The notes: a model not told the origin generated them from the sequence alone. DNA of 64,000 bases from Alphaproteobacteria bacterium (GCA_965231875.1 CBDDOM010000002.1:4690487-4754486); one strand, 5' to 3'. Positions 21,078-33,326 are shown, counted from the stretch's first letter. A program made the numbers and translations.

Positions 21078-22543
21078 GCTCGAACTCCCCCCAATGCCCG
21101 CACCGCCTCGCGCGCGGTTTCGACATCGTCGAAGGGGCGCGTGGTATTGCCCACGATCTGCCCGGTCTCGTGCCCCTTGCCCGCGACGATCAGCACATCG
21201 TCCGCCGCCAGCCCCGCGATAGCGGCGCGAATCGCTTCGCCCCGATCGCCGATCTCGACCGCGTCGGGACAACCGGAAAGAATTTCGCGTCGGATCGCGC
21301 CGGGATCTTCGCTGCGCGGGTTGTCATCGGTCACCACCGCCCGGTCGGCGAACCGGGCGGCTGCCTCGCCCATCAGGCGCCGCTTGCCGGAATCGCGGTC
21401 CCCGCCGCAGCCGAACACCACGACCAGTGCCCCCGCGGCGTGGAGCCTCAGGGCCTGCAACGCATGGACCAGCGCAACCGGGGTGTGGGCGTAGTCCACA
21501 AAGATCACCGCCCCGGTGGGGCCGCGGCCCACGGGCTGCATCCGCCCCGGCGGCGCCTCGAGCGTGCCCAGGGAGTCGATCGCGGCGCACCGGTCGTCCC
21601 CGCCGCCGACAACGAGACCGGCGGCGCAGAGGGCGTTGCCGATCTGGAATTCGCCGATCAGGCCGAAGCGCTGCCGCCGGGTTTCGCCGAACGCGACGAG
21701 CTCGGCGACCTGGCCGTCCATATCGGGCTCCACCGAGACCAGGCGCAGCTCCTGGGCGTTGCGGCCGTAATCGATAACCGGGCATCCGCGCGCCCGGCAG
21801 GTTTCGGCGAAGAGGTCGAACTCCGGGCTGTCGGCATTCAGCACGGCGGTGCCGCCCGGCGGGAGGAGCTCGCCAAAGAGGCGCAGCTTGGCGGCGCGAT
21901 AGGCATCGAACGAAACGTGGTAATCGAGATGATCGCGGGACAGGTTGGTGAAACCGGCGGCGGCAAGCGGGACACCGTCGAGACGGCACTGGGCCAGCCC
22001 GTGGCTGGAGGCCTCGAGCGCCGCGCGCTCGACCCCCGCATCGGCGAGCGCCGCGAGATCCCGATGCAGCGTGACGGGGTCGGGCGTCGTCAGGGCGCCG
22101 GCGCGCTTGCCGGACGGGCCGACGACACCGAGTGTGCCGACCGCGGCCGCCCGCAAGCCGGTCGCGCCCCAGATCTGACGCACGAAGGACACCACGGAGG
22201 TCTTGCCGTTGGTGCCGGTCACCGCCACGCAGCGCTCGGGCGGATCGGGGTAGAAGCGCGCGGAGAGCTCGGCCAGGCGAGCGCGCGGATCGGCATCGAC
22301 GACCGTTCGGACCCGGCCCTCGGCCGCGCCGAGGTCGATCGCTTCGGGAACCAGGATCGCCGCCGCGCCGCGCGCTACGGCATCGGCGACAAAATACCGG
22401 CCATCCGTTGCCAGGCCCGGCAGGGCCGCGAACAGGAAGCCGGGCCGGACCTGCCGCGAATCGCTGGCGATGCCCGTGATCTCGACATCGCCTTCCGGCG
22501 GTCGGCGGGGCATGTCCGGGCCAAGAAGATCAACGAGACGCAA
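21074..22543 (-). CDS. murE: UDP-MurNAc-L-Ala-D-Glu--2,6-diaminopimelate ligase MurE
   Basis: 489 aa. Mur ligase (VTGTNGKTS) and the DNPR motif typical of meso-DAP-adding MurE. Confidence 0.88.
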   Translation of the reverse strand: MRLVDLLGPDMPRRPPEGDVEITGIASDSRQVRPGFLFAALPGLATDGRYFVADAVARGAAAILVPEAIDLGAAEGRVRTVVDADPRARLAELSARFYPDPPERCVAVTGTNGKTSVVSFVRQIWGATGLRAAAVGTLGVVGPSGKRAGALTTPDPVTLHRDLAALADAGVERAALEASSHGLAQCRLDGVPLAAAGFTNLSRDHLDYHVSFDAYRAAKLRLFGELLPPGGTAVLNADSPEFDLFAETCRARGCPVIDYGRNAQELRLVSVEPDMDGQVAELVAFGETRRQRFGLIGEFQIGNALCAAGLVVGGGDDRCAAIDSLGTLEAPPGRMQPVGRGPTGAVIFVDYAHTPVALVHALQALRLHAAGALVVVFGCGGDRDSGKRRLMGEAAARFADRAVVTDDNPRSEDPGAIRREILSGCPDAVEIGDRGEAIRAAIAGLAADDVLIVAGKGHETGQIVGNTTRPFDDVETAREAVRALGGVRA

Positions 22544-24248
22544 GCCTCCCGCTCCCTTGCTGCGCCTTCACGACCTCGAGCCGCATTCGCTGCTCGATCT
22601 GCAACGACCGTTCGTCGACGGGCTTGACACCGAGCAGCGGGCCGATGCGCGCGACCGTCCTTCCGACCACCGGCGCGGCAACCCACCCGCCGGTGGCATA
22701 GCCATGGGTCTCGCGGGTGCCGCGCGGCTGGTCGACCAGCGCGAGCACGACATAGCGGGGCCGGTGCATGGGAAACGCGGCGACGAAGGAAGACAGGAGG
22801 CGCTTCTTCTTGTATCCGCCCCGTCCCGCCTGTTCGGCGGTGCCGGTCTTGCCGCCCACCAGATAACCGGCGGCCGCGGCCTTGGAGCCGGTTCCCTCCA
22901 CGACGACAAGCCGCATCAGCCGCCGCATCTTGTCCGACGTGGCCCGGGACAGCACCCGTTTGCCCTCCGGACTCGCCTGCGGCTCACGCTTCAACAGGGT
23001 CGGCGGGTGAAGGGTTCCTCCGTTCACCACCGCCGCGACGGCACTCGTGAGATGGAGCGGGGAGACGGCGACGCCGTGACCGAACGCCACCGTCATCGTG
23101 TTGATCTCGCGCCAGCGGCGGGGATACAGCGGCCAGCCGTTCTCGCTGATCTCGACCGGCGTCTTTCGGAACATTCCGAGATCGGCGAGGAAATGCCGCA
23201 TTCTCTTGCCGCCGACCGCCAGGCCCAGCTTGGCCGCGCCGATATTGGACGAATAGATGAAAACCTCGGGAACGGTCAGCACCCGGGCCTTGGCATGGAA
23301 ATCGCTGATCTTGTACCTGGCGACGCGGATCGGCCGGGTCGCGTCGATCCGGTCGGAGAGAGTCACGGCGCCGACGTCCAGCGCCAAGGCGGTGCTCAGG
23401 ATCTTGAAGGTCGAGCCCATCTCGTAGATGCCGAGGGTCGCCCGATTGAAGCGGAACCCGGCGTTTGCGGAATGCGCCCGGTTGGGATCGAAGTCGGGTA
23501 GCGACACCATGGCGAGCAACTCGCCATTCGCGGTGTCGAGCACGATGCCGGCCGCGCCGACCGCGCTGTGTTCGGTCATCGCCCGGAAGAGCTCGTTTCT
23601 CAGCACGTGCTGGACGCGAATATCGATGCTGAGAGACAGAGAGCCACTGCCTTCTCGAAGTTTGACATCGAATTGTCGTTCGATCCCGGCCAGCCCCTTT
23701 CCGTCGGGATCGGAAAATCCGACCACGTGAGCGGCGAGTCTTCCCATCGGGTAGACCCGGCGCTGGTCGGGCTCCAGTACGAGGCCGGGCATTCCCAGGC
23801 GGAGAATCGCGTATTGCTCGTTCGGGGTCAGATGCCGGCGCAGAGATACATAGCGCTTGGGAATGCGAAGCCGCTCGGAGATCCTTCCGCGGTCGAGATC
23901 GGGCAAGACTGTCGCCAGCGCCTCCAATGTCGCGTCGGCATCGGCGATCCATGCCGTATTCGCGTAGAGCGCGGCGGTTCCGAGGCTGACGGCCAGAACG
24001 ACGCCGTTCCGGTCCGTGATCTCGGTCTTGGCGGCCGCGCCGCGGGCGATCTGGGCCGGCGGCAAGTCTCTCGGCTCGACGCCCGCCTGCAATACGGTGA
24101 CATCGAAGAGCCGGACGCCGATCGCAACGAATGCGGCGGACAATACGGCGCCGGTCAGGAGAAGCCGGCCGCGACCGACTTCGATCGCCCGCTTTCGATC
24201 TCCCTCGATCCGCATGTTCGCTCCGTCGTAGCGTCCGCGATCGGTCAT
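22530..24248 (-). CDS. ftsI: peptidoglycan D,D-transpeptidase FtsI (PBP3)
   Basis: STFK, SSN-like and KTGT motifs with an N-terminal transmembrane segment. The start MTDRG at 24248 overlaps the ftsL stop (ATGA). The track ORF (741 aa) is over-extended. Confidence 0.9.
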   Translation of the reverse strand: MTDRGRYDGANMRIEGDRKRAIEVGRGRLLLTGAVLSAAFVAIGVRLFDVTVLQAGVEPRDLPPAQIARGAAAKTEITDRNGVVLAVSLGTAALYANTAWIADADATLEALATVLPDLDRGRISERLRIPKRYVSLRRHLTPNEQYAILRLGMPGLVLEPDQRRVYPMGRLAAHVVGFSDPDGKGLAGIERQFDVKLREGSGSLSLSIDIRVQHVLRNELFRAMTEHSAVGAAGIVLDTANGELLAMVSLPDFDPNRAHSANAGFRFNRATLGIYEMGSTFKILSTALALDVGAVTLSDRIDATRPIRVARYKISDFHAKARVLTVPEVFIYSSNIGAAKLGLAVGGKRMRHFLADLGMFRKTPVEISENGWPLYPRRWREINTMTVAFGHGVAVSPLHLTSAVAAVVNGGTLHPPTLLKREPQASPEGKRVLSRATSDKMRRLMRLVVVEGTGSKAAAAGYLVGGKTGTAEQAGRGGYKKKRLLSSFVAAFPMHRPRYVVLALVDQPRGTRETHGYATGGWVAAPVVGRTVARIGPLLGVKPVDERSLQIEQRMRLEVVKAQQGSGRLASR

Positions 24249-24598
24249 CGGGCGTCCCTCCCGGACGTCGCCGAGGCTTTCAGCGGGGCGGCCGAAGAGG
24301 GCGTCCAATCCGGATCCGGCCGCACGGCAAATGGGAGATCGGATACCTGCATCGTCTGCGCCGCCTCGGGCACCCGCAGATCGAGATGCCGGCGAGCCAG
24401 CGCCTCGAGCCGTTCCGGCCGGTTGAGATAGCTCCATTCCGCGCGCAGCACGTGCAGCGCCTCCTGTTCGCGCGCGATGTCCCGGTGGATGCCGGCGAGC
24501 CGGTCCTCGAGATCGTGGACCTCGGTCCCGATGACGATCGAGGCCGCGCCCATCACCACGGCAAGCAGCGCGAAAAGCACGGTCGAACTTCGTCTCAT
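24245..24598 (-). CDS. ftsL: cell division protein FtsL
   Basis: 117-aa bitopic protein with a transmembrane segment (VLFALLAVVMGAASIVIG) and a coiled coil, between rsmH and ftsI with ATGA overlaps at both ends. Confidence 0.7.
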   Translation of the reverse strand: MRRSSTVLFALLAVVMGAASIVIGTEVHDLEDRLAGIHRDIAREQEALHVLRAEWSYLNRPERLEALARRHLDLRVPEAAQTMQVSDLPFAVRPDPDWTPSSAAPLKASATSGRDAR

Positions 24599-25566
24599 CC
24601 CGTCCTCGCTTCCGCAACGGGGGCTTCGGTCCGCTCCGCGGCGCGCATGCGCGCCGAACGGGCACGCGGATTTGCGGCGATTTCGGCCGCGCTGGCACGA
24701 ACGACGCGGCGCCCGAGCAGGCGGAATCTTGCGGACCGGCCGGGCGCCTCGGCATCGGGCGCGTGGCGGGAGGGCCGCGGGCGCGCGGCGGAGCGTTCCA
24801 CCAGAAAGCGCTTGACCGTCCGGTCCTCGAGAGAGTGAAAGGTGACGACGGCCAGCCGCCCGCCGGGGCGCAGCAGGGCCTCGGCCGCGCTCAGTCCGCG
24901 CGCGAGCTCCCCAAGCTCGTCGTTCACGTAAACGCGAAGAGCCTGAAACGTGCGCGTGGCCGGGTCGATCCGATCGGTCGCGCCACCGCCGGCCTGCCCC
25001 ACCGCCCGGCGCACGATCGCGGCGAGCGCCGCGGTCCGGTCGATGCGCGCCTCGCGGCGCGCATGGACGATAGCCCGGGCGACCCGCCTGGCGCGCCGCT
25101 CCTCGCCATAATCTCGGATGATCCTCGCAAGGTCCCGCTCGGCCTCTTCGTTGACCACGTCGGCGGCGGTTCGCCCGGTCGAGGACATACGCATGTCCAG
25201 GGGGCCGTCGGCGCGAAACGAGAACCCGCGTTCGGCGGTGTCGAGCTGCATCGAGGAGACGCCGACATCGAGCGCCACGCCGTCCACTCCGTCGATCCCG
25301 TGCGCGGCGAGCAGCGGCGCCATGTCGCCATAGCGCCCGGCGACGAACAGGAACCGGTCGGCATAGCGGCGCCCGAGGGCCGCGGCGGCCGGCGCGGTCG
25401 CCGGATCGCGGTCTATGCCGCAGACCCTGCACCGGGCACTGCCGAGGATCGCCCGGCTGTACCCGCCGGCCCCGAATGTGCCGTCGACATAGATCGCCCC
25501 GTCGCGCGGAGCGATCGCGGCGAGCACCTGGTCCAGCATCACGGGCCTGTGGGCGGCTTCGGTCAT
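24595..25566 (-). CDS. rsmH: 16S rRNA (cytosine1402-N4)-methyltransferase RsmH (MraW)
   Basis: 323 aa. SAM-dependent methyltransferase with MraW motifs (DGTFGAGGYS, VTFHSLEDR). Confidence 0.92.
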   Translation of the reverse strand: MTEAAHRPVMLDQVLAAIAPRDGAIYVDGTFGAGGYSRAILGSARCRVCGIDRDPATAPAAAALGRRYADRFLFVAGRYGDMAPLLAAHGIDGVDGVALDVGVSSMQLDTAERGFSFRADGPLDMRMSSTGRTAADVVNEEAERDLARIIRDYGEERRARRVARAIVHARREARIDRTAALAAIVRRAVGQAGGGATDRIDPATRTFQALRVYVNDELGELARGLSAAEALLRPGGRLAVVTFHSLEDRTVKRFLVERSAARPRPSRHAPDAEAPGRSARFRLLGRRVVRASAAEIAANPRARSARMRAAERTEAPVAEARTG

Positions 25567-26033
25567 CCGCCGCCTCCGTTCCCTATACGCTGGCGCAGCG
25601 CGTCGATCGCCTGACCCTGATGGTCCTGGAACGCGTCCGGCGCCCAGATCTGGAACCGGTTGCCGCGCCCCACGAAGGTCGCCCGGTCCGAGATGCCGGC
25701 GTGATCGGCGAGCGCGGGCGGGATCACGATGCGGCCCTCGCTGTCGAAGGGCAGTTCGTGAACCAGGGCCATGATCGTTTCGACCAGGCTATCGCCGCCG
25801 CCGAGCAGGACCTGCTCGAAATCGTCGCCCTCCAGGGATCGGCTCATGCGCCGGCTGTTGAGCTGGTTGAGCACGTCGCGGCCGATCGCCTCGATGGCGG
25901 GTTCGCGAAAAGAGGGGTAGACGATCAGCGCGCTGGAACTCGATTCCGCGAGCACCGCGCGGAAGGGCGCCGGAACCGAAACGCGCTTCTTCCGGTCGAC
26001 CTTGTTCACATATGTCGACAGAAACGCGGTCAA
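25563..26033 (-). CDS. mraZ: transcriptional regulator MraZ
   Basis: 156 aa. Two MraZ/SpoVT-AbrB-like halves, and the N-terminus aligns to E. coli MraZ (VDRKKRVSVPAPFR). ATGA overlap with rsmH. Confidence 0.9.
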   Translation of the reverse strand: MTAFLSTYVNKVDRKKRVSVPAPFRAVLAESSSSALIVYPSFREPAIEAIGRDVLNQLNSRRMSRSLEGDDFEQVLLGGGDSLVETIMALVHELPFDSEGRIVIPPALADHAGISDRATFVGRGNRFQIWAPDAFQDHQGQAIDALRQRIGNGGGG

Positions 26034-26495: not shown

Positions 26496-27224
26496 ATGAC
26501 CGAGAACCGTCAGGACGAGGCGTTGGGGTTCGAAGCCTTCGAATTTCCCCCGGATCCGGCAGATGATTTCGAATGGGTTCCAGCGACGCCCGAAATTGCG
26601 GGCAATCTGACCGAACCGCGGGAGGCCGATTGGCGGACCGCCGGCACCAGCCGCCGGGCGTTCCTGCGCGGCGTCGTCTGTTCGGGTGTCGCCGTCTCGG
26701 CGTCCGCCTACATGTTCACCGTGCAATCGGGCGAGGCGCGCGCTGCGGTGCGCGGCGTCGAGCGTCTGATCTCGCTGAACATCAACGGGAAGACGCGTCG
26801 CGTCGATGTCCCGCCCAGCGAAACGCTGGCCCAGACGATCCGCTACCGGCTCGGCCTTACCGGCACCAAGATCGGCTGCAACCGCGCCGAATGCGGCGCC
26901 TGCACCGTCCTGGCCGACGACACCACGATCTATTCCTGCTCGACCCTGACCCACCAGGTTCGCGGCAGGAAGATCACGACGGTGGAAGGCGTCGCGGCGC
27001 CGGACGGCACGCTCCATCCGGTGCAGCAGGCGTTCATCGACGAGCTCGGACCGCAATGCGGCTTCTGCACGCCGGGCCAGGTGATGGCGGCGGTCAGCCT
27101 CCTGAAGAAAAACCCGAAGCCGACCGTGGACGAAGCGCGCCGCGCGATGTCCGGCAACCTGTGCAGATGCGGCGCTTACCCACATTACCTCGCCGGCGTC
27201 ATGCGCGCGGCAGGGAGGGCATAG
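26496..27224 (+). CDS. Tat-exported (2Fe-2S)-binding small subunit of a xanthine dehydrogenase/aldehyde oxidoreductase-family molybdoenzyme (PaoA-like)
   Basis: Twin-arginine signal SRRAFLRG, and two [2Fe-2S] cysteine clusters (CNRAECGACTV; CGFCTPG..CRCG). Confidence 0.85.
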   Translation: MTENRQDEALGFEAFEFPPDPADDFEWVPATPEIAGNLTEPREADWRTAGTSRRAFLRGVVCSGVAVSASAYMFTVQSGEARAAVRGVERLISLNINGKTRRVDVPPSETLAQTIRYRLGLTGTKIGCNRAECGACTVLADDTTIYSCSTLTHQVRGRKITTVEGVAAPDGTLHPVQQAFIDELGPQCGFCTPGQVMAAVSLLKKNPKPTVDEARRAMSGNLCRCGAYPHYLAGVMRAAGRA

Positions 27225-27227
27225 ATC

Positions 27228-29642
27228 ATGGCCTATACACTGCTCGGCAAGAACTTCACCCCGCCGGATATCCACGCCAAGGTCACCGGCGCCGCCAAAT
27301 ACGCCGAGGACTTCCGTGCCGACGGCATGGTGTTCCTCAAGACCTACCCCTCTCCGATGCCGCATGCCAGGGTCAAGGCGATCGACGTCGAGGCCGTCAA
27401 GAAGATGCCCGGCGTGGTGGGCGTGCTGCTGCCAAGCGAGCTGAAGCAGCCCAAGGACGCGGGCCACGCGATCCTGACCGCCTACCCGGTGTTCGTGGGC
27501 CAGCCGATCCTCGCGGTCGCGGCGAAGACCGAACAGCAGGCGGAAGACGCGATTCAGGCGGTCAAGGTCGATCTCGAACCGCTTCCCTTCGTCACCGATC
27601 CGCTGGAGAGCCTGAAGCCGGACGGGCCGAACGCCCTTGTCGGCGGCAATGTCGCCAACCGGCGCGGCGTCAAGCTGCAGCAGATCAAGTGGACCGGCAA
27701 AGACTTCGCCAAGGCCGGCGACGATACCCTGCCGATGGGCAAGCCAGCGAGCGAGTGGAGCTTCGGCGACATCGAGGCCGGTTTCGCCAAGTCCAAGGTC
27801 GTGGTCGAGGAATCCTTCGTCAGCGCGGCGAACGCGCATCACGCGATGGAGCCTCGCTCGGCGTCCGCGTACTGGGAGGGCGGCAAGTGTCATGTCTGGG
27901 GGTCGACCCAGTCCTCGTCCTTCGCGGTGCCTAGCCTCGCCAAGCTGATCGGCATCAAGCCGACCGACCTCAACCTGGTCAGCGAGTTCTGCGGCGGCGG
28001 CTTCGGCGGCAAGGCCTATTCCTACCCGTTGATGGCCCTGCCGGCGCTGATGTCGAAGAAGCTCAACGGCCGGCCCGTGCTGATGCGGGTAAGCCGCGCG
28101 GACGAGTTCATCAACGGCTCGGCGCGGGCCGCGTTCCAGGGCTGGGTCAAGATCGGCTTCGGCGCCGACGGAAGGGTGCTGGCGCTCGACAGCTACATCG
28201 TGCAGGACAACGGCTCCACCGCCGGGTTCTGGGACTTCCAGAATTTCGGCATGGCGTCGTCGGTGATCCTGCAGCCCGAGGCGATGCGGTTTCGCGGCAT
28301 CCCGGTGCTCACCAACACCCCGCCGAAGGGCGCGCAGCGCGGCCCGGGCGAGAACCAGACGGCCAACATCCTGGAGCCGATCCTCGACAGGGCGGCGCGC
28401 GAGCTGGGCATCGACCGGCTGGCGCTGCGTCTCGCGAACGCGCCGGGCGGCGGGCCGAACGGCAAGATCGGACCCAAGCAGGGGCCGCTCACCAGCGCCT
28501 TTCTCAAGGAAGGGCTGGAGCAGGCCGCCGCGAAGTGGGGCTATGCGGAGCGGATCAAGAAGACCGGCAAGCAGGCCAACGGCAAGATCAGGTCGGTCGG
28601 TATCGGTCAGGCTTATCACGCCGCCGGCTATAACGGCTTCGACGGCATGGTCCGCATCACGCCGGACGGCAAGCTTCACATTCACACCGGCGTCGGCAAT
28701 CTCGGCACCTACTCCTACGGGGCGACCTCCCGGGTCGCGGCCGAGGTGCTGGGCTATGACTGGAACAACACGGTCATAGAACGCGGCGGAACGCTGAAGG
28801 CGATGCCGTTCAATATCGGCCAGTTCGGGTCCAACACCTCGTTCACCATGACCCGGACGAACTATGCCGGGGCAATGGACGCCAAGCAGAAGCTGCTCGA
28901 AATCGGCGCGGCGATACTCGGCGGCAAGGCCGACGACTACAAGCTCGACAAGGAGCGGGTGGTTGCCAACAACGGCTCGGGATCGATCACTTTCGCCCAG
29001 GCGGCGAAAAAGGCGATCGAGCTCGGCGGCAAGTATTCCGGCCACGAGGTCGACCCGAAGCTCAACGGGCTGACCAAGGCGGCGGTCGGGATGATCAAGG
29101 GCACCGGCCTGATCGGCGTCGCCAAGGACAAGCTGCCCAAGAAGGGGACCGTCCCGGCGCTGGCGGCGGCGTTCATCGAGATCGAGCTCGATCCGGAGAC
29201 CGGCAAGGTCGAGATCCTCGACTATATGGGCGTCGCCGATGTCGGCCAGGTGCTGCACCCGCAGGGGCTCGACGCCCAGATCCGCGGCGGCGCGGTGATG
29301 GGGTTCGGTCTGGCGGCGATGGAGCGCTACATCTACGACCCCGCCTATGGCCGGCCCAACGCCATCGGATTCCACCAGGCGAAGCCGCCGACCTATCTCG
29401 ACGTTCCGGCCGAGCTTGGCTCGCTCGCTGTCGAGGGGGCGGTGGACGAGCAGAACCCGGTGGGGGCCAAGGGCATCGGCGAGCCGGTTCAGGGGTCGGC
29501 GTCATCCGCCTATCTGAGCGCGGTATCCGATGCGCTGGACGGTCACATGTTCAACCGGGTCCCCGTGGTCGCGGACATGATCGTCAACGTGGTCGCGAAA
29601 CGGCCGCAATCCTACAAGCCGTTGCAGGTCAACAATCAGTGA
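27228..29642 (+). CDS. molybdopterin-binding large subunit, xanthine dehydrogenase family (PaoC-like)
   Basis: 804 aa, starting 4 nt after the FeS subunit. Ald_Xan_dh hammerhead and Moco-binding motifs (GGGFGGK, the QGxGxxT-like QGLDAQIRGGAVMGFG). Confidence 0.85.
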   Translation: MAYTLLGKNFTPPDIHAKVTGAAKYAEDFRADGMVFLKTYPSPMPHARVKAIDVEAVKKMPGVVGVLLPSELKQPKDAGHAILTAYPVFVGQPILAVAAKTEQQAEDAIQAVKVDLEPLPFVTDPLESLKPDGPNALVGGNVANRRGVKLQQIKWTGKDFAKAGDDTLPMGKPASEWSFGDIEAGFAKSKVVVEESFVSAANAHHAMEPRSASAYWEGGKCHVWGSTQSSSFAVPSLAKLIGIKPTDLNLVSEFCGGGFGGKAYSYPLMALPALMSKKLNGRPVLMRVSRADEFINGSARAAFQGWVKIGFGADGRVLALDSYIVQDNGSTAGFWDFQNFGMASSVILQPEAMRFRGIPVLTNTPPKGAQRGPGENQTANILEPILDRAARELGIDRLALRLANAPGGGPNGKIGPKQGPLTSAFLKEGLEQAAAKWGYAERIKKTGKQANGKIRSVGIGQAYHAAGYNGFDGMVRITPDGKLHIHTGVGNLGTYSYGATSRVAAEVLGYDWNNTVIERGGTLKAMPFNIGQFGSNTSFTMTRTNYAGAMDAKQKLLEIGAAILGGKADDYKLDKERVVANNGSGSITFAQAAKKAIELGGKYSGHEVDPKLNGLTKAAVGMIKGTGLIGVAKDKLPKKGTVPALAAAFIEIELDPETGKVEILDYMGVADVGQVLHPQGLDAQIRGGAVMGFGLAAMERYIYDPAYGRPNAIGFHQAKPPTYLDVPAELGSLAVEGAVDEQNPVGAKGIGEPVQGSASSAYLSAVSDALDGHMFNRVPVVADMIVNVVAKRPQSYKPLQVNNQ

Positions 29643-29664
29643 CGGGCGGAACGGAGGCAGACCA

Positions 29665-30654
29665 ATGACCGACTATATGCACGCATTCGACCTCTACACG
29701 CCCGCGAGTCTGGCGGACGCGGCAAAGCTGCTGGACGAGCACGGCAAGGACGCCTGGATCGTGGCCGGCGGCAAGGACAGCTTCGACTGGTTCAAGGATC
29801 GGCACAAGCAGCCCAAGGCGGTCGTGGACGTCAGCGGGCTCAAGGAGCTTCGCGGGATCCGGGACGGCGGCGACCACATCGCCGTCGGCGCGGCGACCAC
29901 GCTGACCGAGATCGAGGAGAGCAAGCTGCTGCGGGACAATTTCCCGTTGCTGGTCCAGGCCGCCGCCAAGGTGGCAAGCCCGCAGATCCGCAATTCGGGA
30001 ACCATCGGCGGCAATGTCTCGCAGGACACGCGCTGTACCTATTACAGGGACGGCTTCCCCTGCTACCGCGCGGGCGGCAATACCTGCTACGCCAACACGC
30101 CGACGGCGATGAACCGGGAGCATGCTCTGTTCGAGGCGGTACGCTGCGTCGCGGTGACGCCGTCGGACACGGCGCCGGCGCTCGTCGCGCTGGACGCCCA
30201 GATGGCGATCTCGCGGGACGGCAAAATGCGGACCGTGCCGGCGGAGAAGTTCTTCATCGGCCCGGACGTCGACATCACGCGGATGACGGTCCTCGAAAAA
30301 GGCGACATCCTGACCGAGATCCGGCTTCCCAAGGCGTGGGCGGGCGCCAAGACGTATTTCGAGAAGGTCGCCGACCGCGAGACCTGGGACTTCGCCCTGG
30401 TCAATATCGCGATGGCGGCCAGGACCGACGGCGGCATGGTGAAGGACGTGCGGGTCGCGTGCGGCGGAGTTCAGTGCACGCCGAGGCGGCTGACCGAGGT
30501 CGAGGACCTGATGAAGGGGGAGAAGGCGGGGGCGGAGCTCGAAAAGCTCGCGCAGCGGGTTGCCGCGCGAGGCGCGAAGGCGCTCAACTTCAACCACTTC
30601 AAGATCCCGCTGATGGGGAACCTCGCGGCGCGCGCGGTCAGATCGCTCGCCTGA
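29665..30654 (+). CDS. FAD-binding subunit of the molybdopterin dehydrogenase (PaoB/CoxM-like)
   Basis: 329 aa. FAD_binding_5 pattern (AGGKDSFDW, AVGAATTLTEI, GTIGGNV). Confidence 0.8.
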   Translation: MTDYMHAFDLYTPASLADAAKLLDEHGKDAWIVAGGKDSFDWFKDRHKQPKAVVDVSGLKELRGIRDGGDHIAVGAATTLTEIEESKLLRDNFPLLVQAAAKVASPQIRNSGTIGGNVSQDTRCTYYRDGFPCYRAGGNTCYANTPTAMNREHALFEAVRCVAVTPSDTAPALVALDAQMAISRDGKMRTVPAEKFFIGPDVDITRMTVLEKGDILTEIRLPKAWAGAKTYFEKVADRETWDFALVNIAMAARTDGGMVKDVRVACGGVQCTPRRLTEVEDLMKGEKAGAELEKLAQRVAARGAKALNFNHFKIPLMGNLAARAVRSLA

Positions 30655-30658
30655 GGGT

Positions 30659-30805
30659 ATGGAGGTTTTCCGCTTCTCGAAGAACGTCTGGGGCCAGGAG
30701 ATACTGCTCGGGATGTCCTGGGATCTGCTCTGGGTCCCGGTCGCGGTGGCATTCGCCTGCATCGCGGCGCATCGACTCCTTCGGCTGGCCCTGCGGCGGA
30801 GCTGA
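30659..30805 (+). CDS. possible 48-aa hydrophobic small protein
   Basis: ATG at 30659, 5 nt after the FAD subunit stop. Encodes MEVFRFSKNVWGQEILLGMSWDLLWVPVAVAFACIAAHRLLRLALRRS, which has one predicted transmembrane helix. Below the track's length cut-off, no homology recognised. Speculative. Confidence 0.2.
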   Translation: MEVFRFSKNVWGQEILLGMSWDLLWVPVAVAFACIAAHRLLRLALRRS

Positions 30806-30820
30806 GTAACCCTCGCGGAC

Positions 30821-31414
30821 ATGTCGGGAAGCGCGGCTGAAGACATTCGGCACCGATGGCCGGACCGTTCGTTCCACTGGGCGATGGCGGCGCTGGTTGT
30901 CGTTCTCCTGGGGACCGCGTTCCTGCCTGTTCTCGGGGTTCGTTTCGACTGGGTTCCGATCCACTGGATTTCCGGTGTGTTGCTGACGATCGCGATCGTC
31001 TTCCACCTCTACCGGGCGTTTCTGGTGCACGGCATCCGGTCGATGATGCCGACGGGCCAGGACCTGCGGGTCGCCCTGAGGCGGGAGCCGGAGGACGGCA
31101 CGGTCAAGTACGACCTCAACCAGAAGCTCTACCACTGGTCGGTAGCGGCGGTGATGCTCGTCCTCGTGGTCTCCGGTTGCATCATGCTCGCCAAGATCGA
31201 CACGCCTCTCTGGCGGCGCGACCCGTCGATCCTCTCGGACGGGAATTGGGGCGTGGTTTATGTCTGCCACGGGGCGGCATCGCTGGCGCTGATCTTCTTC
31301 TTTATCCTGCATCTCTATTTCGCGTTCCTCCCGGAGCACCGGCGGCTGCTCGCGGCCATGGTGCTGGGCCGCGAAACCTGGAGGCCGGAACGAACGCCGG
31401 AGCGGCAATCATGA
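30821..31414 (+). CDS. membrane b-type cytochrome (Ni/Fe-hydrogenase / FdnI-like cytochrome b561 family)
   Basis: 197 aa. Four predicted transmembrane helices, each with a conserved His (SFHWAM, IVFHLY, LYHWSV, YVCHGA/ILHLYF). Likely the membrane anchor and quinone-reducing partner of the upstream periplasmic molybdoenzyme. Confidence 0.6.
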   Translation: MSGSAAEDIRHRWPDRSFHWAMAALVVVLLGTAFLPVLGVRFDWVPIHWISGVLLTIAIVFHLYRAFLVHGIRSMMPTGQDLRVALRREPEDGTVKYDLNQKLYHWSVAAVMLVLVVSGCIMLAKIDTPLWRRDPSILSDGNWGVVYVCHGAASLALIFFFILHLYFAFLPEHRRLLAAMVLGRETWRPERTPERQS

Positions 31415-31791
31415 GCAGTCCCGAAACCATCCGGACGCATATCGAGCGCGTCGAGGAAGCCTATGAGTTCATGCTCGCCTATGCCGCCCAGGGCCGCGGC
31501 GACGAAGGCGCGGGCCCGGACGGAACCCATATCAGGACTTTCCTGAATCAGTTCGACGCGGCGGTCGCCGCGATTGTCGGCGAACTCGACACGGTGCCCG
31601 GCGCCGGGGAGGAGGCCGCGGCGTTCCTGGCCGCGCTGAGGGCGGATTCGGAGATCGTGACATCGGTTCTCCGGGCCATGCTCGCGCGCGACCGGATCAC
31701 CTCCGAGGTGGTGGACAATGCGAACGGGCTGATCTCGGTCCGCTCTTACCTGACCGGGCTGTTCTTTCTCGACAAGGCGTTGCTCCCGTGA
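31411..31791 (+). CDS. hypothetical 126-aa protein translationally coupled to the cytochrome b gene
   Basis: The ATG at 31411 overlaps the TGA of the preceding gene (ATGA). In the track it is buried in the over-extended ORF 30856..31791. No recognisable motif. Confidence 0.45.
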   Translation: MSSPETIRTHIERVEEAYEFMLAYAAQGRGDEGAGPDGTHIRTFLNQFDAAVAAIVGELDTVPGAGEEAAAFLAALRADSEIVTSVLRAMLARDRITSEVVDNANGLISVRSYLTGLFFLDKALLP

Positions 31792-31821: not shown

Positions 31822-32205
<384 letters not shown>

Positions 32206-33014: not shown

Positions 33015-33326
33015 TCAGGCGGCGCTGCGGCGCAGTGCCGCGTCGCGCCGGCTCTCGGGCTCGCGATAGGCCATCTTCACGTGGGCGGCGCAGTAGGAAA
33101 AGCCTTCCGAGGTCTTCCGACCGCAGAAATGGAAATCCTCCGTGCCGGGCTCGCCGTAGGGCCACTGGCACGTGCGGTACGGGGAGGTCTTGCTCACTCT
33201 CATCAGTGAGACGAGTTCGGATCGGTCCGACATTCTGGCGTGTCCTAAGATTGGAACGCGCGATAGATATGGTCGGCTCTTTCCAACGTCAAGATTCGCG
33301 ACCGGAATACTGGGCAACTGCGTCAA
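33015..33326 (-). CDS. GcrA-like protein containing only the GcrA C-terminal domain
   Basis: 103 aa. CQWPYGEPGTEDFHFCGRKTSEGFSYCAAHVKMAY matches the conserved GcrA C-terminal CKWPIGDP..F.FCG..PYC..H...AY block. The N-terminal DNA-binding domain (MSWTDE...) is absent, and only 45 bp separate the gene from the upstream ABC gene. Confidence 0.55.
   Translation of the reverse strand: MTQLPSIPVANLDVGKSRPYLSRVPILGHARMSDRSELVSLMRVSKTSPYRTCQWPYGEPGTEDFHFCGRKTSEGFSYCAAHVKMAYREPESRRDAALRRSAA

What the first reader, a model, noticed from the sequence alone, without database searches (positions are those of the whole stretch)
26496..31791. Tat-exported PaoABC-like molybdoenzyme with a dedicated cytochrome b, a 48-aa peptide and an unknown 126-aa protein
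The FeS (Tat signal), Moco and FAD subunits are followed 5 nt later by a possible 48-aa single-transmembrane peptide, then a four-helix cytochrome b561-like protein, then a translationally coupled 126-aa protein of unknown function. Periplasmic aldehyde or heteroaromatic oxidoreductases of this family usually lack a dedicated membrane cytochrome. This arrangement suggests a respiratory-chain-linked dehydrogenase. The gene order A-C-B differs from E. coli paoABC.
Basis: partly seen in the sequence, partly recalled or inferred. Interest (0 to 1): 0.5.

Follow-up and report, generated by a model that had tools for sequence, protein, structure and literature searches.

The report
Membrane-wired periplasmic molybdenum hydroxylase operon
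This is a real six-gene operon, conserved in hundreds of bacterial species. It appears to connect an exported molybdenum enzyme to the respiratory quinone pool through a formate-dehydrogenase-type two-haem cytochrome b. It also encodes two small proteins (48 and 126 residues) that belong to no described family.

Summary
Six tightly packed + strand genes encode:
- a Tat-signal 2x[2Fe-2S] subunit;
- an 804-aa Moco subunit;
- an FAD subunit with four invariant Cys, a PaoB/HcrB-type [4Fe-4S] loop;
- a 48-aa single-TM peptide (p48);
- a PF01292 cytochrome b;
- an overlapping 126-aa ORF (p126).

- The cytochrome keeps all four FdnI haem-ligand His and the FdnI quinone-site loop.
- Relatives of p126 occur at 550 or more places in GTDB species genomes. 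Of the 80 loci fetched, 67 have enough upstream DNA; 47 of those carry all six genes in this order, and no other gene is conserved nearby.

p48 is a real subunit. It is conserved across phyla, has an invariant His, and is fused to the N-terminus of the cytochrome in Acidobacteriota, Gemmatimonadota, Limnochordales and Ca. Entotheonella.

p126 is a confidently modelled four-helix bundle without a signal peptide and with no Pfam, NCBIfam or PDB relative. It stays with the enzyme genes even where p48 and the cytochrome are absent.

Best reading: a periplasmic Mo-hydroxylase:quinone oxidoreductase working as an Fdh-N-like redox loop, with p126 as a maturation or Tat-proofreading factor. That role for p126 is inferred. 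The substrate is unknown. This is a new variant of a known kind, and I found no description of it in the searchable literature.

The parts
26496..27224 (+). Small subunit with 2x[2Fe-2S] and a Tat signal peptide. The signal peptide covers about 26496-26744. RR is at residues 53-54 and the predicted AxA cleavage follows residue 83. The N-region is unusually long and carries a conserved PPDPADDF.W.PAT motif.
   Evidence: Pfam Fer2 and Fer2_2. The motif [ST]RRxF[LI][KR] is present in 56/56 homologues. The NCBIfam PaoA score is 149 against a cut-off of 322.
27228..29642 (+). Molybdenum-cofactor (large) subunit of a xanthine-oxidase-family hydroxylase. Key residues are catalytic Glu E752, Gln Q228, Arg R371 and His H464; H464 sits at the PaoC R440 position.
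   Evidence: Pfam Ald_Xan_dh_C, MoCoBD_1 and MoCoBD_2. PDB matches are HcrA, 4zoh_A, PaoC and QorL, all at E 1e-45 to 1e-42. Conservation in homologues: E752 61/61, Q228 61/61, R371 60/61, H464 58/61.
29665..30654 (+). FAD subunit with an inserted four-Cys loop (C124, C133, C141, C161; nt about 30034-30147) of the kind that binds a [4Fe-4S] cluster in HcrB, PaoB and the Methylobacillus aldehyde oxidase.
   Evidence: Pfam FAD_binding_5 has an insert of about 50 aa; CO_deh_flav_C also matches. Best PDB match is 5y6q_B (1e-43), followed by 1rm6_B and 5g5g_B, with the Cys aligned. All four Cys are invariant in 73/73 homologues.
30659..30805 (+). p48, a 48-aa single-pass membrane subunit. It has a conserved N-terminal periplasmic beta-hairpin (ME.FR....WGQE.L.G.SWD), a TM helix with invariant His38, and a basic cytoplasmic tail.
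   Evidence: It is conserved in 66 loci and is fused to the N-terminus of the cytochrome b in 5 of them. Many fused proteins of 270-300 aa exist in the protein collection. The AF2 model of the fused protein P0192 shows a hairpin at residues 4-19 and a TM helix at 21-46. In split operons p48 stays next to the FAD gene.
30821..31414 (+). FdnI-type two-haem cytochrome b with four TM helices. The haem ligands are H19, H48, H150 and H164. The GKY..QK loop corresponds to the FdnI quinone/HQNO site. Three further His are invariant: H11, H62 and H105.
31411..31791 (+). p126, a 126-aa cytoplasmic four-helix-bundle protein of an undescribed family. Its signatures are EE.YEFMLAYAAQG and SS...DN.N.....R.LLT..F..D. 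Its start overlaps the cytochrome stop codon (ATGA).
   Evidence: It has 311 relatives and 609 representatives at 50% identity, all small single-domain proteins. The AF2 model has pLDDT 88.5 and pTM 0.84. It has no Pfam, NCBIfam or PDB relative. It is always found in the module.

Best explanation
The six genes encode one membrane-associated respiratory enzyme.

Assembly and export (inferred by analogy). The FeS, Moco and FAD subunits are loaded with cofactors and assembled in the cytoplasm. They are then exported together through Tat on the signal peptide of the FeS subunit, as in PaoABC.

Docking at the membrane (inferred). On the periplasmic face the trimer docks onto a five-helix membrane module. 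This module consists of the four-helix FdnI-type cytochrome b plus the single helix of p48. The periplasmic beta-hairpin of p48 is the likely docking element. p48 plays the part that the C-terminal anchor helix of FdnH, or of the hydrogenase small subunit, plays in the known PF01292 complexes.

Electron path (inferred).
1. The substrate, an aldehyde or a heteroaromatic compound whose identity is unknown, is hydroxylated at Mo.
2. Electrons pass through the two [2Fe-2S] clusters, FAD and the extra [4Fe-4S] cluster to the periplasmic haem (H48/H150).
3. They cross the membrane to the cytoplasmic haem (H19/H164).
4. They reduce quinone at a site homologous to the FdnI menaquinone site on the cytoplasmic side.

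Protons would be released outside and taken up inside, so the complex would work as a redox loop that conserves energy.

p126 stays in the cytoplasm. It most likely acts as a system-specific maturation or Tat-proofreading factor for the enzyme.

What is shown and what is inferred.
- Shown: gene content, domain identities, ligand conservation, the gene fusion and gene linkage.
- Inferred: physical association, the direction of electron flow, the position of the quinone site and the role of p126.
For: - Domains and the Tat motif.
- Four invariant Cys in the FAD subunit align with the [4Fe-4S] loops of 5y6q_B and HcrB.
- The catalytic Glu, Gln and Arg are invariant.
- p48 is fused to the cytochrome in five fetched loci and in many database proteins.
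- None of the three enzyme subunits has a TM helix (read).
- In 9 of 56 homologues the FeS subunit carries a lipobox after the Tat signal. That places the enzyme at the membrane surface.
- Linkage: 550 or more loci encode a relative of p126. Of the 67 fetched loci with enough flank, 47 carry all six genes in canonical order. In 7 more the enzyme genes plus p48 are divergent from the cytochrome plus p126. In 4 the genes are in another order.
- No other gene is conserved nearby, and no XdhC/PaoD-type gene is present.
- p126 persists in the Desulfobacterota loci. These keep the Tat signal but lack p48 and the cytochrome.
- A distant p126 representative still sits in the module.
- The terminal acceptor of PaoABC itself is reported as unidentified (PMC3958847).
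Against: - There is no biochemical evidence of any kind.
- There is no complex model, so the distance from the [4Fe-4S] cluster to haem bP and the p48-enzyme contact are untested.
- Four additional invariant His (cytochrome H11, H62 and H105, and p48 H38) are not explained by the FdnI template. They may mean a different cofactor content or quinone site.
- The p126 fold is a generic four-helix bundle. It has no similarity to TorD, DmsD, NarJ or XdhC chaperones, so the chaperone role rests only on analogy and on gene context.
- p126 could instead be a fourth subunit that is co-exported with the enzyme.
- The closest structurally known FAD and Moco relatives include a reductase, 4-hydroxybenzoyl-CoA reductase, so reverse electron flow is not excluded.
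Confidence: 0.6

Rival explanations
1. The complex is the same but runs in reverse. The cytochrome b/p48 module oxidises quinol and feeds electrons through the [4Fe-4S] cluster and FAD to the Mo centre, which reduces a periplasmic substrate. This would be the inverted electron flow known from 4-hydroxybenzoyl-CoA reductase.
For: - The top NCBIfam and PDB matches of the subunits include the HcrC/A/B proteins of 4-hydroxybenzoyl-CoA reductase.
- The gene order FeS-Moco-FAD is, from my own knowledge and not checked here, that of hcrCAB.
- The extra [4Fe-4S] cluster was first described in that reductase.
Against: - PaoB and the Methylobacillus aldehyde oxidase also carry the [4Fe-4S] loop, and both belong to oxidising enzymes.
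- From established knowledge: HcrABC needs a low-potential ferredoxin. Quinol is too weak a reductant for the known reductive reactions of this family.
- The catalytic Glu, Gln and Arg set is that of hydroxylases.
- FdnI-type cytochromes in characterised complexes accept electrons from the periplasmic enzyme.
Confidence: 0.1
2. p126 is not a chaperone. It is a fourth structural subunit that hitch-hikes through Tat with the enzyme and sits in the periplasmic holoenzyme, for example as a stabilising or docking subunit.
For: - p126 follows the enzyme genes even where the cytochrome and p48 are missing.
- The Moco and FAD subunits also lack signal peptides yet are presumed to be exported by hitch-hiking.
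- Its very strong conservation (invariant E15, Y18, E19, Y24, S98, D102, N105) would fit a permanent interface.
Against: - In Tat-exported molybdoenzyme operons, the signal-less last gene is typically a cytoplasmic chaperone that is absent from the mature enzyme. Examples are NarJ, TorD, DmsD and PaoD (established knowledge; PMC10609526).
- In split operons p126 goes with the cytochrome gene and not with the enzyme genes.
- Solved PaoABC-type and related enzymes have three subunits.
Confidence: 0.2
3. The enzyme is an ordinary soluble PaoABC-type detoxifying aldehyde oxidoreductase, and the cytochrome b, p48 and p126 are unrelated neighbours.
For: The Tat-exported three-subunit architecture with a [4Fe-4S] loop resembles PaoABC.
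Against: - Linkage of all six genes holds across phyla and in many different genomic contexts.
- A distant p126 representative is still in the module.
- NCBIfam PaoA and PaoC scores are far below the cut-offs.
- There is no paoD-like gene.
Confidence: 0.03

Closest known systems
E. coli periplasmic aldehyde oxidoreductase PaoABC (YagTSR) with its chaperone PaoD
   Same: - Three separate subunits: 2x[2Fe-2S] with a Tat signal, FAD with a [4Fe-4S] loop, and Moco.
- Export of the folded trimer to the periplasm.
- The hydroxylase catalytic residues are kept.
   Different: - It is not an orthologue. NCBIfam scores are 149/322 for PaoA and 215/1180 for PaoC.
- The gene order is FeS-Moco-FAD.
- There is no XdhC-type paoD gene.
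- His replaces PaoC R440.
- It has a dedicated cytochrome b, p48 and p126. The terminal acceptor of PaoABC has not been identified (PMC3958847).
E. coli formate dehydrogenase-N (FdnGHI) redox loop
   Same: - The membrane subunit is a homologue of FdnI, with the same four haem ligands and the same quinone-site loop.
- One extra N-out/C-in anchor helix lies next to the cytochrome.
- The catalytic part is periplasmic and Tat-exported.
   Different: - The catalytic enzyme is a xanthine-oxidase-family Mo-hydroxylase with FAD, not a Mo-bisPGD enzyme with a four-cluster FeS subunit.
- The anchor helix is a free 48-aa peptide, or is fused to the cytochrome, instead of being the C-terminus of the FeS subunit.
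- Four additional invariant His are present.
- The NCBIfam FDH-gamma score is 35 against a cut-off of 116.
Membrane-bound aldehyde dehydrogenase of acetic acid bacteria (PDB 8gy3) and other xanthine-oxidase-family enzymes with cytochrome c partners (from my own knowledge: NicAB)
   Same: A xanthine-oxidase-family enzyme on the periplasmic face is coupled to the respiratory chain and quinone.
   Different: - Those enzymes use multi-haem cytochrome c subunits or domains and lack the FAD subunit.
- Here the partner is a transmembrane two-haem cytochrome b, which allows charge separation across the membrane.
4-hydroxybenzoyl-CoA reductase HcrCAB and Methylobacillus aldehyde oxidase (5y6q)
   Same: These are the best sequence matches of the subunits, and they share the [4Fe-4S] loop in the FAD subunit. 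From my own knowledge and not checked here, hcrCAB has the same gene order.
   Different: - Identity is low, with E-values around 1e-36 to 1e-45.
- Hcr is cytoplasmic and depends on ferredoxin.
- Neither has a cytochrome b, p48 or p126.

Membership tests
Xanthine oxidase family molybdenum hydroxylase (three-subunit bacterial type) | The set of Pfam domains: Fer2/Fer2_2; Ald_Xan_dh_C + MoCoBD_1 + MoCoBD_2; FAD_binding_5 + CO_deh_flav_C. | tested here: met
   all are above the gathering scores.
Xanthine oxidase family molybdenum hydroxylase (three-subunit bacterial type) | The catalytic Glu (PaoC E692, bovine E1261) and the active-site Gln and Arg. | tested here: met
   E752 aligns with PaoC E692. 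Conservation: E752 61/61, Q228 61/61, R371 60/61. There is no CODH-type Cys loop. Ala or Gly occupies the XDH E802 position, so it is not a purine XDH type.
Xanthine oxidase family molybdenum hydroxylase (three-subunit bacterial type) | A sulfurated Moco (MCD or MPT) and hydroxylase activity. | not testable with these tools
   This needs biochemistry.
PaoABC (E. coli periplasmic aldehyde oxidoreductase) orthologue | A Tat signal on the FeS subunit and a [4Fe-4S] Cys loop in the FAD subunit. | tested here: met
PaoABC (E. coli periplasmic aldehyde oxidoreductase) orthologue | Scores above the NCBIfam equivalog cut-offs for PaoA (NF008514) and PaoC (NF041671). | tested here: not met
   149 against 322 bits, and 215 against 1180 bits. 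HcrA, XdhA and the glyceraldehyde-DH models score higher than PaoC.
PaoABC (E. coli periplasmic aldehyde oxidoreductase) orthologue | An XdhC-type chaperone gene (paoD) in the operon. | tested here: not met
   No further conserved gene was found in the 80 loci. p126 is a four-helix bundle, not a Rossmann-like XdhC (PMC10609526).
FdnI-type two-haem cytochrome b (Pfam PF01292) | A Pfam match above the gathering score. | tested here: met
   65.2 bits against 30.1.
FdnI-type two-haem cytochrome b (Pfam PF01292) | Four bis-His haem ligands on TM1, TM2 and TM4 (H-x13-H on TM4). | tested here: met
   H19, H48, H150 and H164 align with FdnI H18, H57, H155 and H169. They are invariant in 71-72 of 72 sequences.
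FdnI-type two-haem cytochrome b (Pfam PF01292) | The fold. | tested here: met
FdnI-type two-haem cytochrome b (Pfam PF01292) | A quinone reduction site at the cytoplasmic haem. | tested here: inconclusive
   The GKY..QK loop aligns with FdnI K108-K114. I assign the FdnI HQNO-site residues from memory, and function is not testable here.
Formate dehydrogenase gamma subunit (the name some sources give to homologues of the cytochrome) | The NCBIfam equivalog score, and a neighbouring FdnG/FdnH. | tested here: not met
   TIGR01583 scores 35 bits against a cut-off of 116. The neighbours are xanthine-oxidase-family genes.
Tat redox-enzyme maturation proteins (TorD/DmsD/NarJ) or XdhC, considered for p126 | Sequence or fold similarity to those families. 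| tested here: not met

The most novel reading that the evidence does not exclude
This is an undescribed, widespread class of energy-conserving periplasmic Mo-hydroxylase:quinone oxidoreductase that contains two new protein families.

1. A His-bearing single-TM subunit, p48. Together with three extra invariant His of the cytochrome (H11, H62, H105) it forms something absent from FdnI on the cytoplasmic side. This could be a third haem or a novel quinone/proton site.

2. A 126-aa four-helix protein, p126. It would be a new kind of system-specific maturation or Tat-proofreading chaperone, replacing the XdhC/PaoD chaperone thought to be required for this enzyme family.
Probability: 0.3. Interest if true: 0.75.

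Novelty: new variant of a known kind. Interest (0 to 1): 0.6.

Why it matters
- The physiological electron acceptor of periplasmic PaoABC-type molybdoenzymes is an open question (PMC3958847). This clade points to a concrete, testable answer: a dedicated FdnI-type cytochrome b that would make substrate oxidation proton-motive.
- The module occurs in at least several hundred species, including abundant marine groups (SAR86, SAR324, Paracoccaceae, sponge symbionts). An unknown periplasmic substrate may therefore feed respiration in many environments.
- The finding defines two protein families with no annotation.
- It flags a systematic misannotation: homologues of the cytochrome are named 'formate dehydrogenase gamma'.

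Tried and rejected
- Pfam and NCBIfam scans of p126 found nothing consistent. I scanned the window protein, 23 close members and 43 diverse members.
- A profile search of p126 against PDB sequences gave nothing significant.
- The library-wide profile search for p126 found 609 representatives. All are small single-domain proteins. The longer ones are low-complexity extensions or merged ORFs, not domain fusions.
- The AFDB Foldseek library was unavailable.
- p126 has no relative on PLSDB plasmids.
- The exact-sequence contig look-up for the window's p126 found nothing on record.
- The exact p48 and cytochrome sequences are not in the protein collection.
- Seven literature searches combined xanthine-oxidase-family or PaoABC terms with cytochrome b, Tat or quinone terms. 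None found a paper describing this arrangement.
- The promoter and terminator scan of the operon was uninformative.
- I rejected a CODH identity: there is no active-site Cys loop.
- I rejected a purine XDH identity: Ala or Gly occupies the E802 position.
- I rejected chance co-location of the genes.

Full report
OBSERVATION

- FeS subunit, 26496-27224, 242 aa.
- Moco subunit, 27228-29642, 804 aa.
- FAD subunit, 29665-30654, 329 aa.
- p48, 30659-30805.
- Cytochrome b, 30821-31414, 197 aa.
- p126, 31411-31791.

The intergenic gaps are 3, 22, 4 and 15 nt. The cytochrome stop and the p126 start overlap as ATGA.

Pfam assigns these domains:
- FeS subunit: Fer2 + Fer2_2.
- Moco subunit: Ald_Xan_dh_C + MoCoBD_1 + MoCoBD_2.
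- FAD subunit: FAD_binding_5 (with an insert of about 50 residues) + CO_deh_flav_C.
- Cytochrome: PF01292, E 8e-18.
- p48 and p126: nothing.

The FeS subunit carries TSRRAFLRG at residues 51-59, after a 50-residue N-region, and an ARA cleavage motif at residues 81-83.

The operon is flanked by a divergent mraZ-rsmH-ftsI cluster upstream. A convergent RNase P RNA gene lies 31 nt downstream.

THE ENZYME

The Moco subunit is about equally distant from several solved enzymes, all at E 1e-45 to 1e-40. These are 4-hydroxybenzoyl-CoA reductase HcrA, the Sulfolobus enzyme 4zoh, PaoC, quinoline oxidoreductase, 7dqx and the Methylobacillus aldehyde oxidase.

No NCBIfam equivalog cut-off is approached by any subunit. 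The enzyme therefore forms its own clade in the xanthine oxidase family and is not a PaoABC orthologue.

The pairwise alignment to PaoC identifies these active-site residues:
- The catalytic Glu, E752, matches PaoC E692.
- The active-site Gln is Q228.
- The Arg of the xxRGPGE motif is R371.
- A His, H464, sits where PaoC has R440.

Across 61 homologues, E752 and Q228 are invariant, R371 is kept in 60 and H464 in 58. The position of XDH E802 is Ala or Gly, and there is no CODH Cys loop. This is a conserved hydroxylase site of unknown specificity.

The FAD subunit matches best the medium subunit of the Methylobacillus aldehyde oxidase (5y6q_B, 1e-43). CutM, HcrB and PaoB follow. Four Cys (C124, C133, C141, C161) align with the Cys of the [4Fe-4S] loops of 5y6q_B and HcrB. 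They are invariant in 73/73 homologues.

THE CYTOCHROME

A profile of 19 diverse homologues hits E. coli FdnI (1kqf_C) at E 2.5e-10.
- H19, H48, H150 and H164 fall on FdnI H18, H57, H155 and H169. I assign these as the four haem ligands from the published Fdh-N structure, from memory.
- The invariant GKY..QK loop falls on FdnI K108-K114, the region of the HQNO/menaquinone site.

In 72 homologues these four His are invariant. So are three more His that FdnI lacks: H11, H62 and H105.

The distribution of basic residues, read from the sequence, fits the FdnI topology with both the N- and C-termini inside.

p48 IS A SUBUNIT OF THE CYTOCHROME

tblastn finds p48 in most related loci, down to about 40% identity.

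In an alignment of 66 sequences:
- H38 is kept in 66/66, G12 in 65/66, W21 in 65/66 and R5 in 62/66.
- The length is nearly always 46-54 residues.

Differences from the window sequence are in excess at the third codon position: 472/370/680 at positions 1/2/3.

In five fetched loci the p48 sequence is the N-terminus of the cytochrome b polypeptide. These are from Limnochordales, Acidobacteriota, Gemmatimonadota and one contig of doubtful binning.

The protein collection holds many such fused proteins of 270-300 residues, for example from Ca. Entotheonella factor.

In the AF2 model:
- Residues 4-19 form a beta-hairpin.
- Residues 21-46 form a TM helix.
- The four cytochrome helices follow.

p48 has an acidic N-terminus and a tail with four Arg. 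The fusion joins it to the cytoplasmic N-terminus of the cytochrome. Together these place the hairpin in the periplasm.

None of the three enzyme subunits has a TM helix. In Fdh-N and in hydrogenase-1, by contrast, the FeS subunit supplies a C-terminal anchor helix next to the cytochrome (established knowledge). p48 looks like that anchor helix made free-standing.

When the operon is split, p48 stays next to the FAD gene.

p126

The family has 311 members in the 90%-clustered collection and 609 representatives at 50% identity. All are small and single-domain.

A set of polar residues is invariant: E15, Y18, E19, Y24, S98, D102 and N105.

The AF2 model is a confident up-down four-helix bundle (pLDDT 88.5, pTM 0.84).

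Nothing in Pfam, NCBIfam or the PDB is related to it. It has no signal peptide and no TM segment.

LINKAGE

Eighty were fetched.

Of the 67 loci with enough upstream DNA:
- 47 carry all six genes in the window's order.
- 7 have FeS-Moco-FAD-p48 divergent from cytochrome-p126.
- 4 have the order Moco-FeS-FAD-p48-cytochrome-p126.
- 5 lack a detectable p48. One of these, L012, has decayed DNA there.
- 2 are odd cases.
- 2 have FeS-Moco-FAD-p126 with neither p48 nor the cytochrome. A third such locus, L074, was counted among the short contigs. These loci keep a Tat signal.

The three loci in the last group come from Desulfobacterales, Syntrophobacterales and Desulfobulbus.

No other gene is conserved around the module, and in particular there is no XdhC/PaoD-type gene.

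A distant p126 representative (E 9e-12 to the profile) again sits behind FeS-Moco-FAD and a fused 282-aa cytochrome.

So p48 goes with the cytochrome, and p126 goes with the enzyme.

In 9 of 56 FeS subunits the Tat signal ends in a lipobox. This is a second way of holding the enzyme at the membrane.

MECHANISM

The best-supported reading is a periplasmic Mo-hydroxylase:quinone oxidoreductase. The electron path would run in this order:
1. Mo.
2. The two [2Fe-2S] clusters.
3. FAD.
4. The [4Fe-4S] cluster.
5. The outer haem (H48/H150).
6. The inner haem (H19/H164).
7. Quinone, at the cytoplasmic side.

That is the charge-separating redox loop known from Fdh-N. The steps beyond gene content and conserved ligands are inferences.

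p126 is most simply a cytoplasmic, system-specific maturation or Tat-proofreading factor.
- This is by analogy with the signal-less accessory genes of other Tat molybdoenzyme operons (PMC10609526).
- XO-family enzymes normally need an XdhC-type chaperone, which is missing here.
- A co-exported fourth subunit is the main rival.

Reverse, reductase-type electron flow is possible but thermodynamically unattractive.

The four extra invariant His at the cytoplasmic leaflet are unexplained. A third haem or a different quinone/proton site are the obvious candidates.

COMPARISON AND NOVELTY

The parts are known kinds: an XO-family enzyme with PaoB/HcrB-type extra cluster, and an FdnI-type cytochrome. 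I did not find their combination described in seven full-text searches. The library does not cover most subscription journals, so absence there is not proof.

The PaoABC literature states that the enzyme's terminal acceptor has not been identified (PMC3958847).

Known membrane-linked XO-family enzymes use cytochrome c partners, for example 8gy3, which appears.

p48 and p126 have no family assignment. Homologues of the cytochrome are auto-named 'formate dehydrogenase subunit gamma', which their neighbours contradict.

I rate this a new variant of a known kind and of moderate-to-good interest. It offers a direct, testable answer for how this class of periplasmic molybdoenzyme is wired into respiration. 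It also raises two well-defined unknowns: the role of p126 and the extra His cluster.

Noticed in passing
window 31823-32200 (-): A bacterial class A RNase P RNA gene (290 bits). It is convergent with the operon and starts 31 nt after the p126 stop codon. The + strand ORFs listed there (for example 31871-32200) are therefore spurious.
   Followed up: yes
window 30821-31414 and 30659-30805: Four invariant His lie beyond the four FdnI-type haem ligands: cytochrome H11, H62 and H105, and p48 H38. All are predicted at the cytoplasmic leaflet. FdnI has no His at the aligned positions. They could mark a third haem or a distinct quinone/proton site.
   Followed up: partly
window 26496-26650 (FeS subunit residues 1-52): The N-region before the twin-arginine motif is unusually long. 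In alphaproteobacterial homologues it carries a conserved acidic, proline-rich motif (PPDPADDF.W.PAT, or PYDPT.DY in Paracoccaceae). It is absent in gammaproteobacterial and other members. It may be a chaperone-binding or regulatory element.
   Followed up: partly
L048, L051, L058, L060, L061, L068, L069, L071, L077 (FeS genes): In 9 of 56 homologues the Tat signal of the FeS subunit ends in a lipobox (for example LAGCS or LSGCS). In those lineages the enzyme would be a Tat-exported lipoprotein.
   Followed up: partly
L063 3789-8387, L070 3781-8426, L074 441-5181: The Desulfobacterota versions have only FeS(Tat)-Moco-FAD-p126, with no p48 and no cytochrome b. This suggests a soluble periplasmic form with a different electron acceptor.
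   Followed up: partly
L012 7247-8000: A close relative (enzyme subunits about 80% identical) has no intact p48 or cytochrome ORF between the FAD gene and p126. The region is either decayed or badly assembled.
   Followed up: partly
window 33015-33326 (-): A 103-aa ORF matches only the C-terminal third of the GcrA cell-cycle regulator profile (positions 96-153 of 155). It is a short GcrA-like protein lacking the N-terminal DNA-binding part.
   Followed up: no
window 22530-26033 (-): Genes of the cell-division (dcw) cluster are divergent from the operon: MraZ (25563-26033), RsmH/MraW (24595-25566) and an FtsI-type PBP (within 22530-24755). The close relative L001 shares ORFs at the corresponding upstream position. 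More distant carriers have the module in other contexts, which suggests the module moves as a unit.
   Followed up: partly
proteins P0129, P0135 and others: Public sources name homologues of this cytochrome 'formate dehydrogenase subunit gamma' or 'cytochrome b subunit of formate dehydrogenase'. The fetched loci and a distant contig (L081) show xanthine-oxidase-family neighbours instead, so the names are probably wrong.
   Followed up: partly
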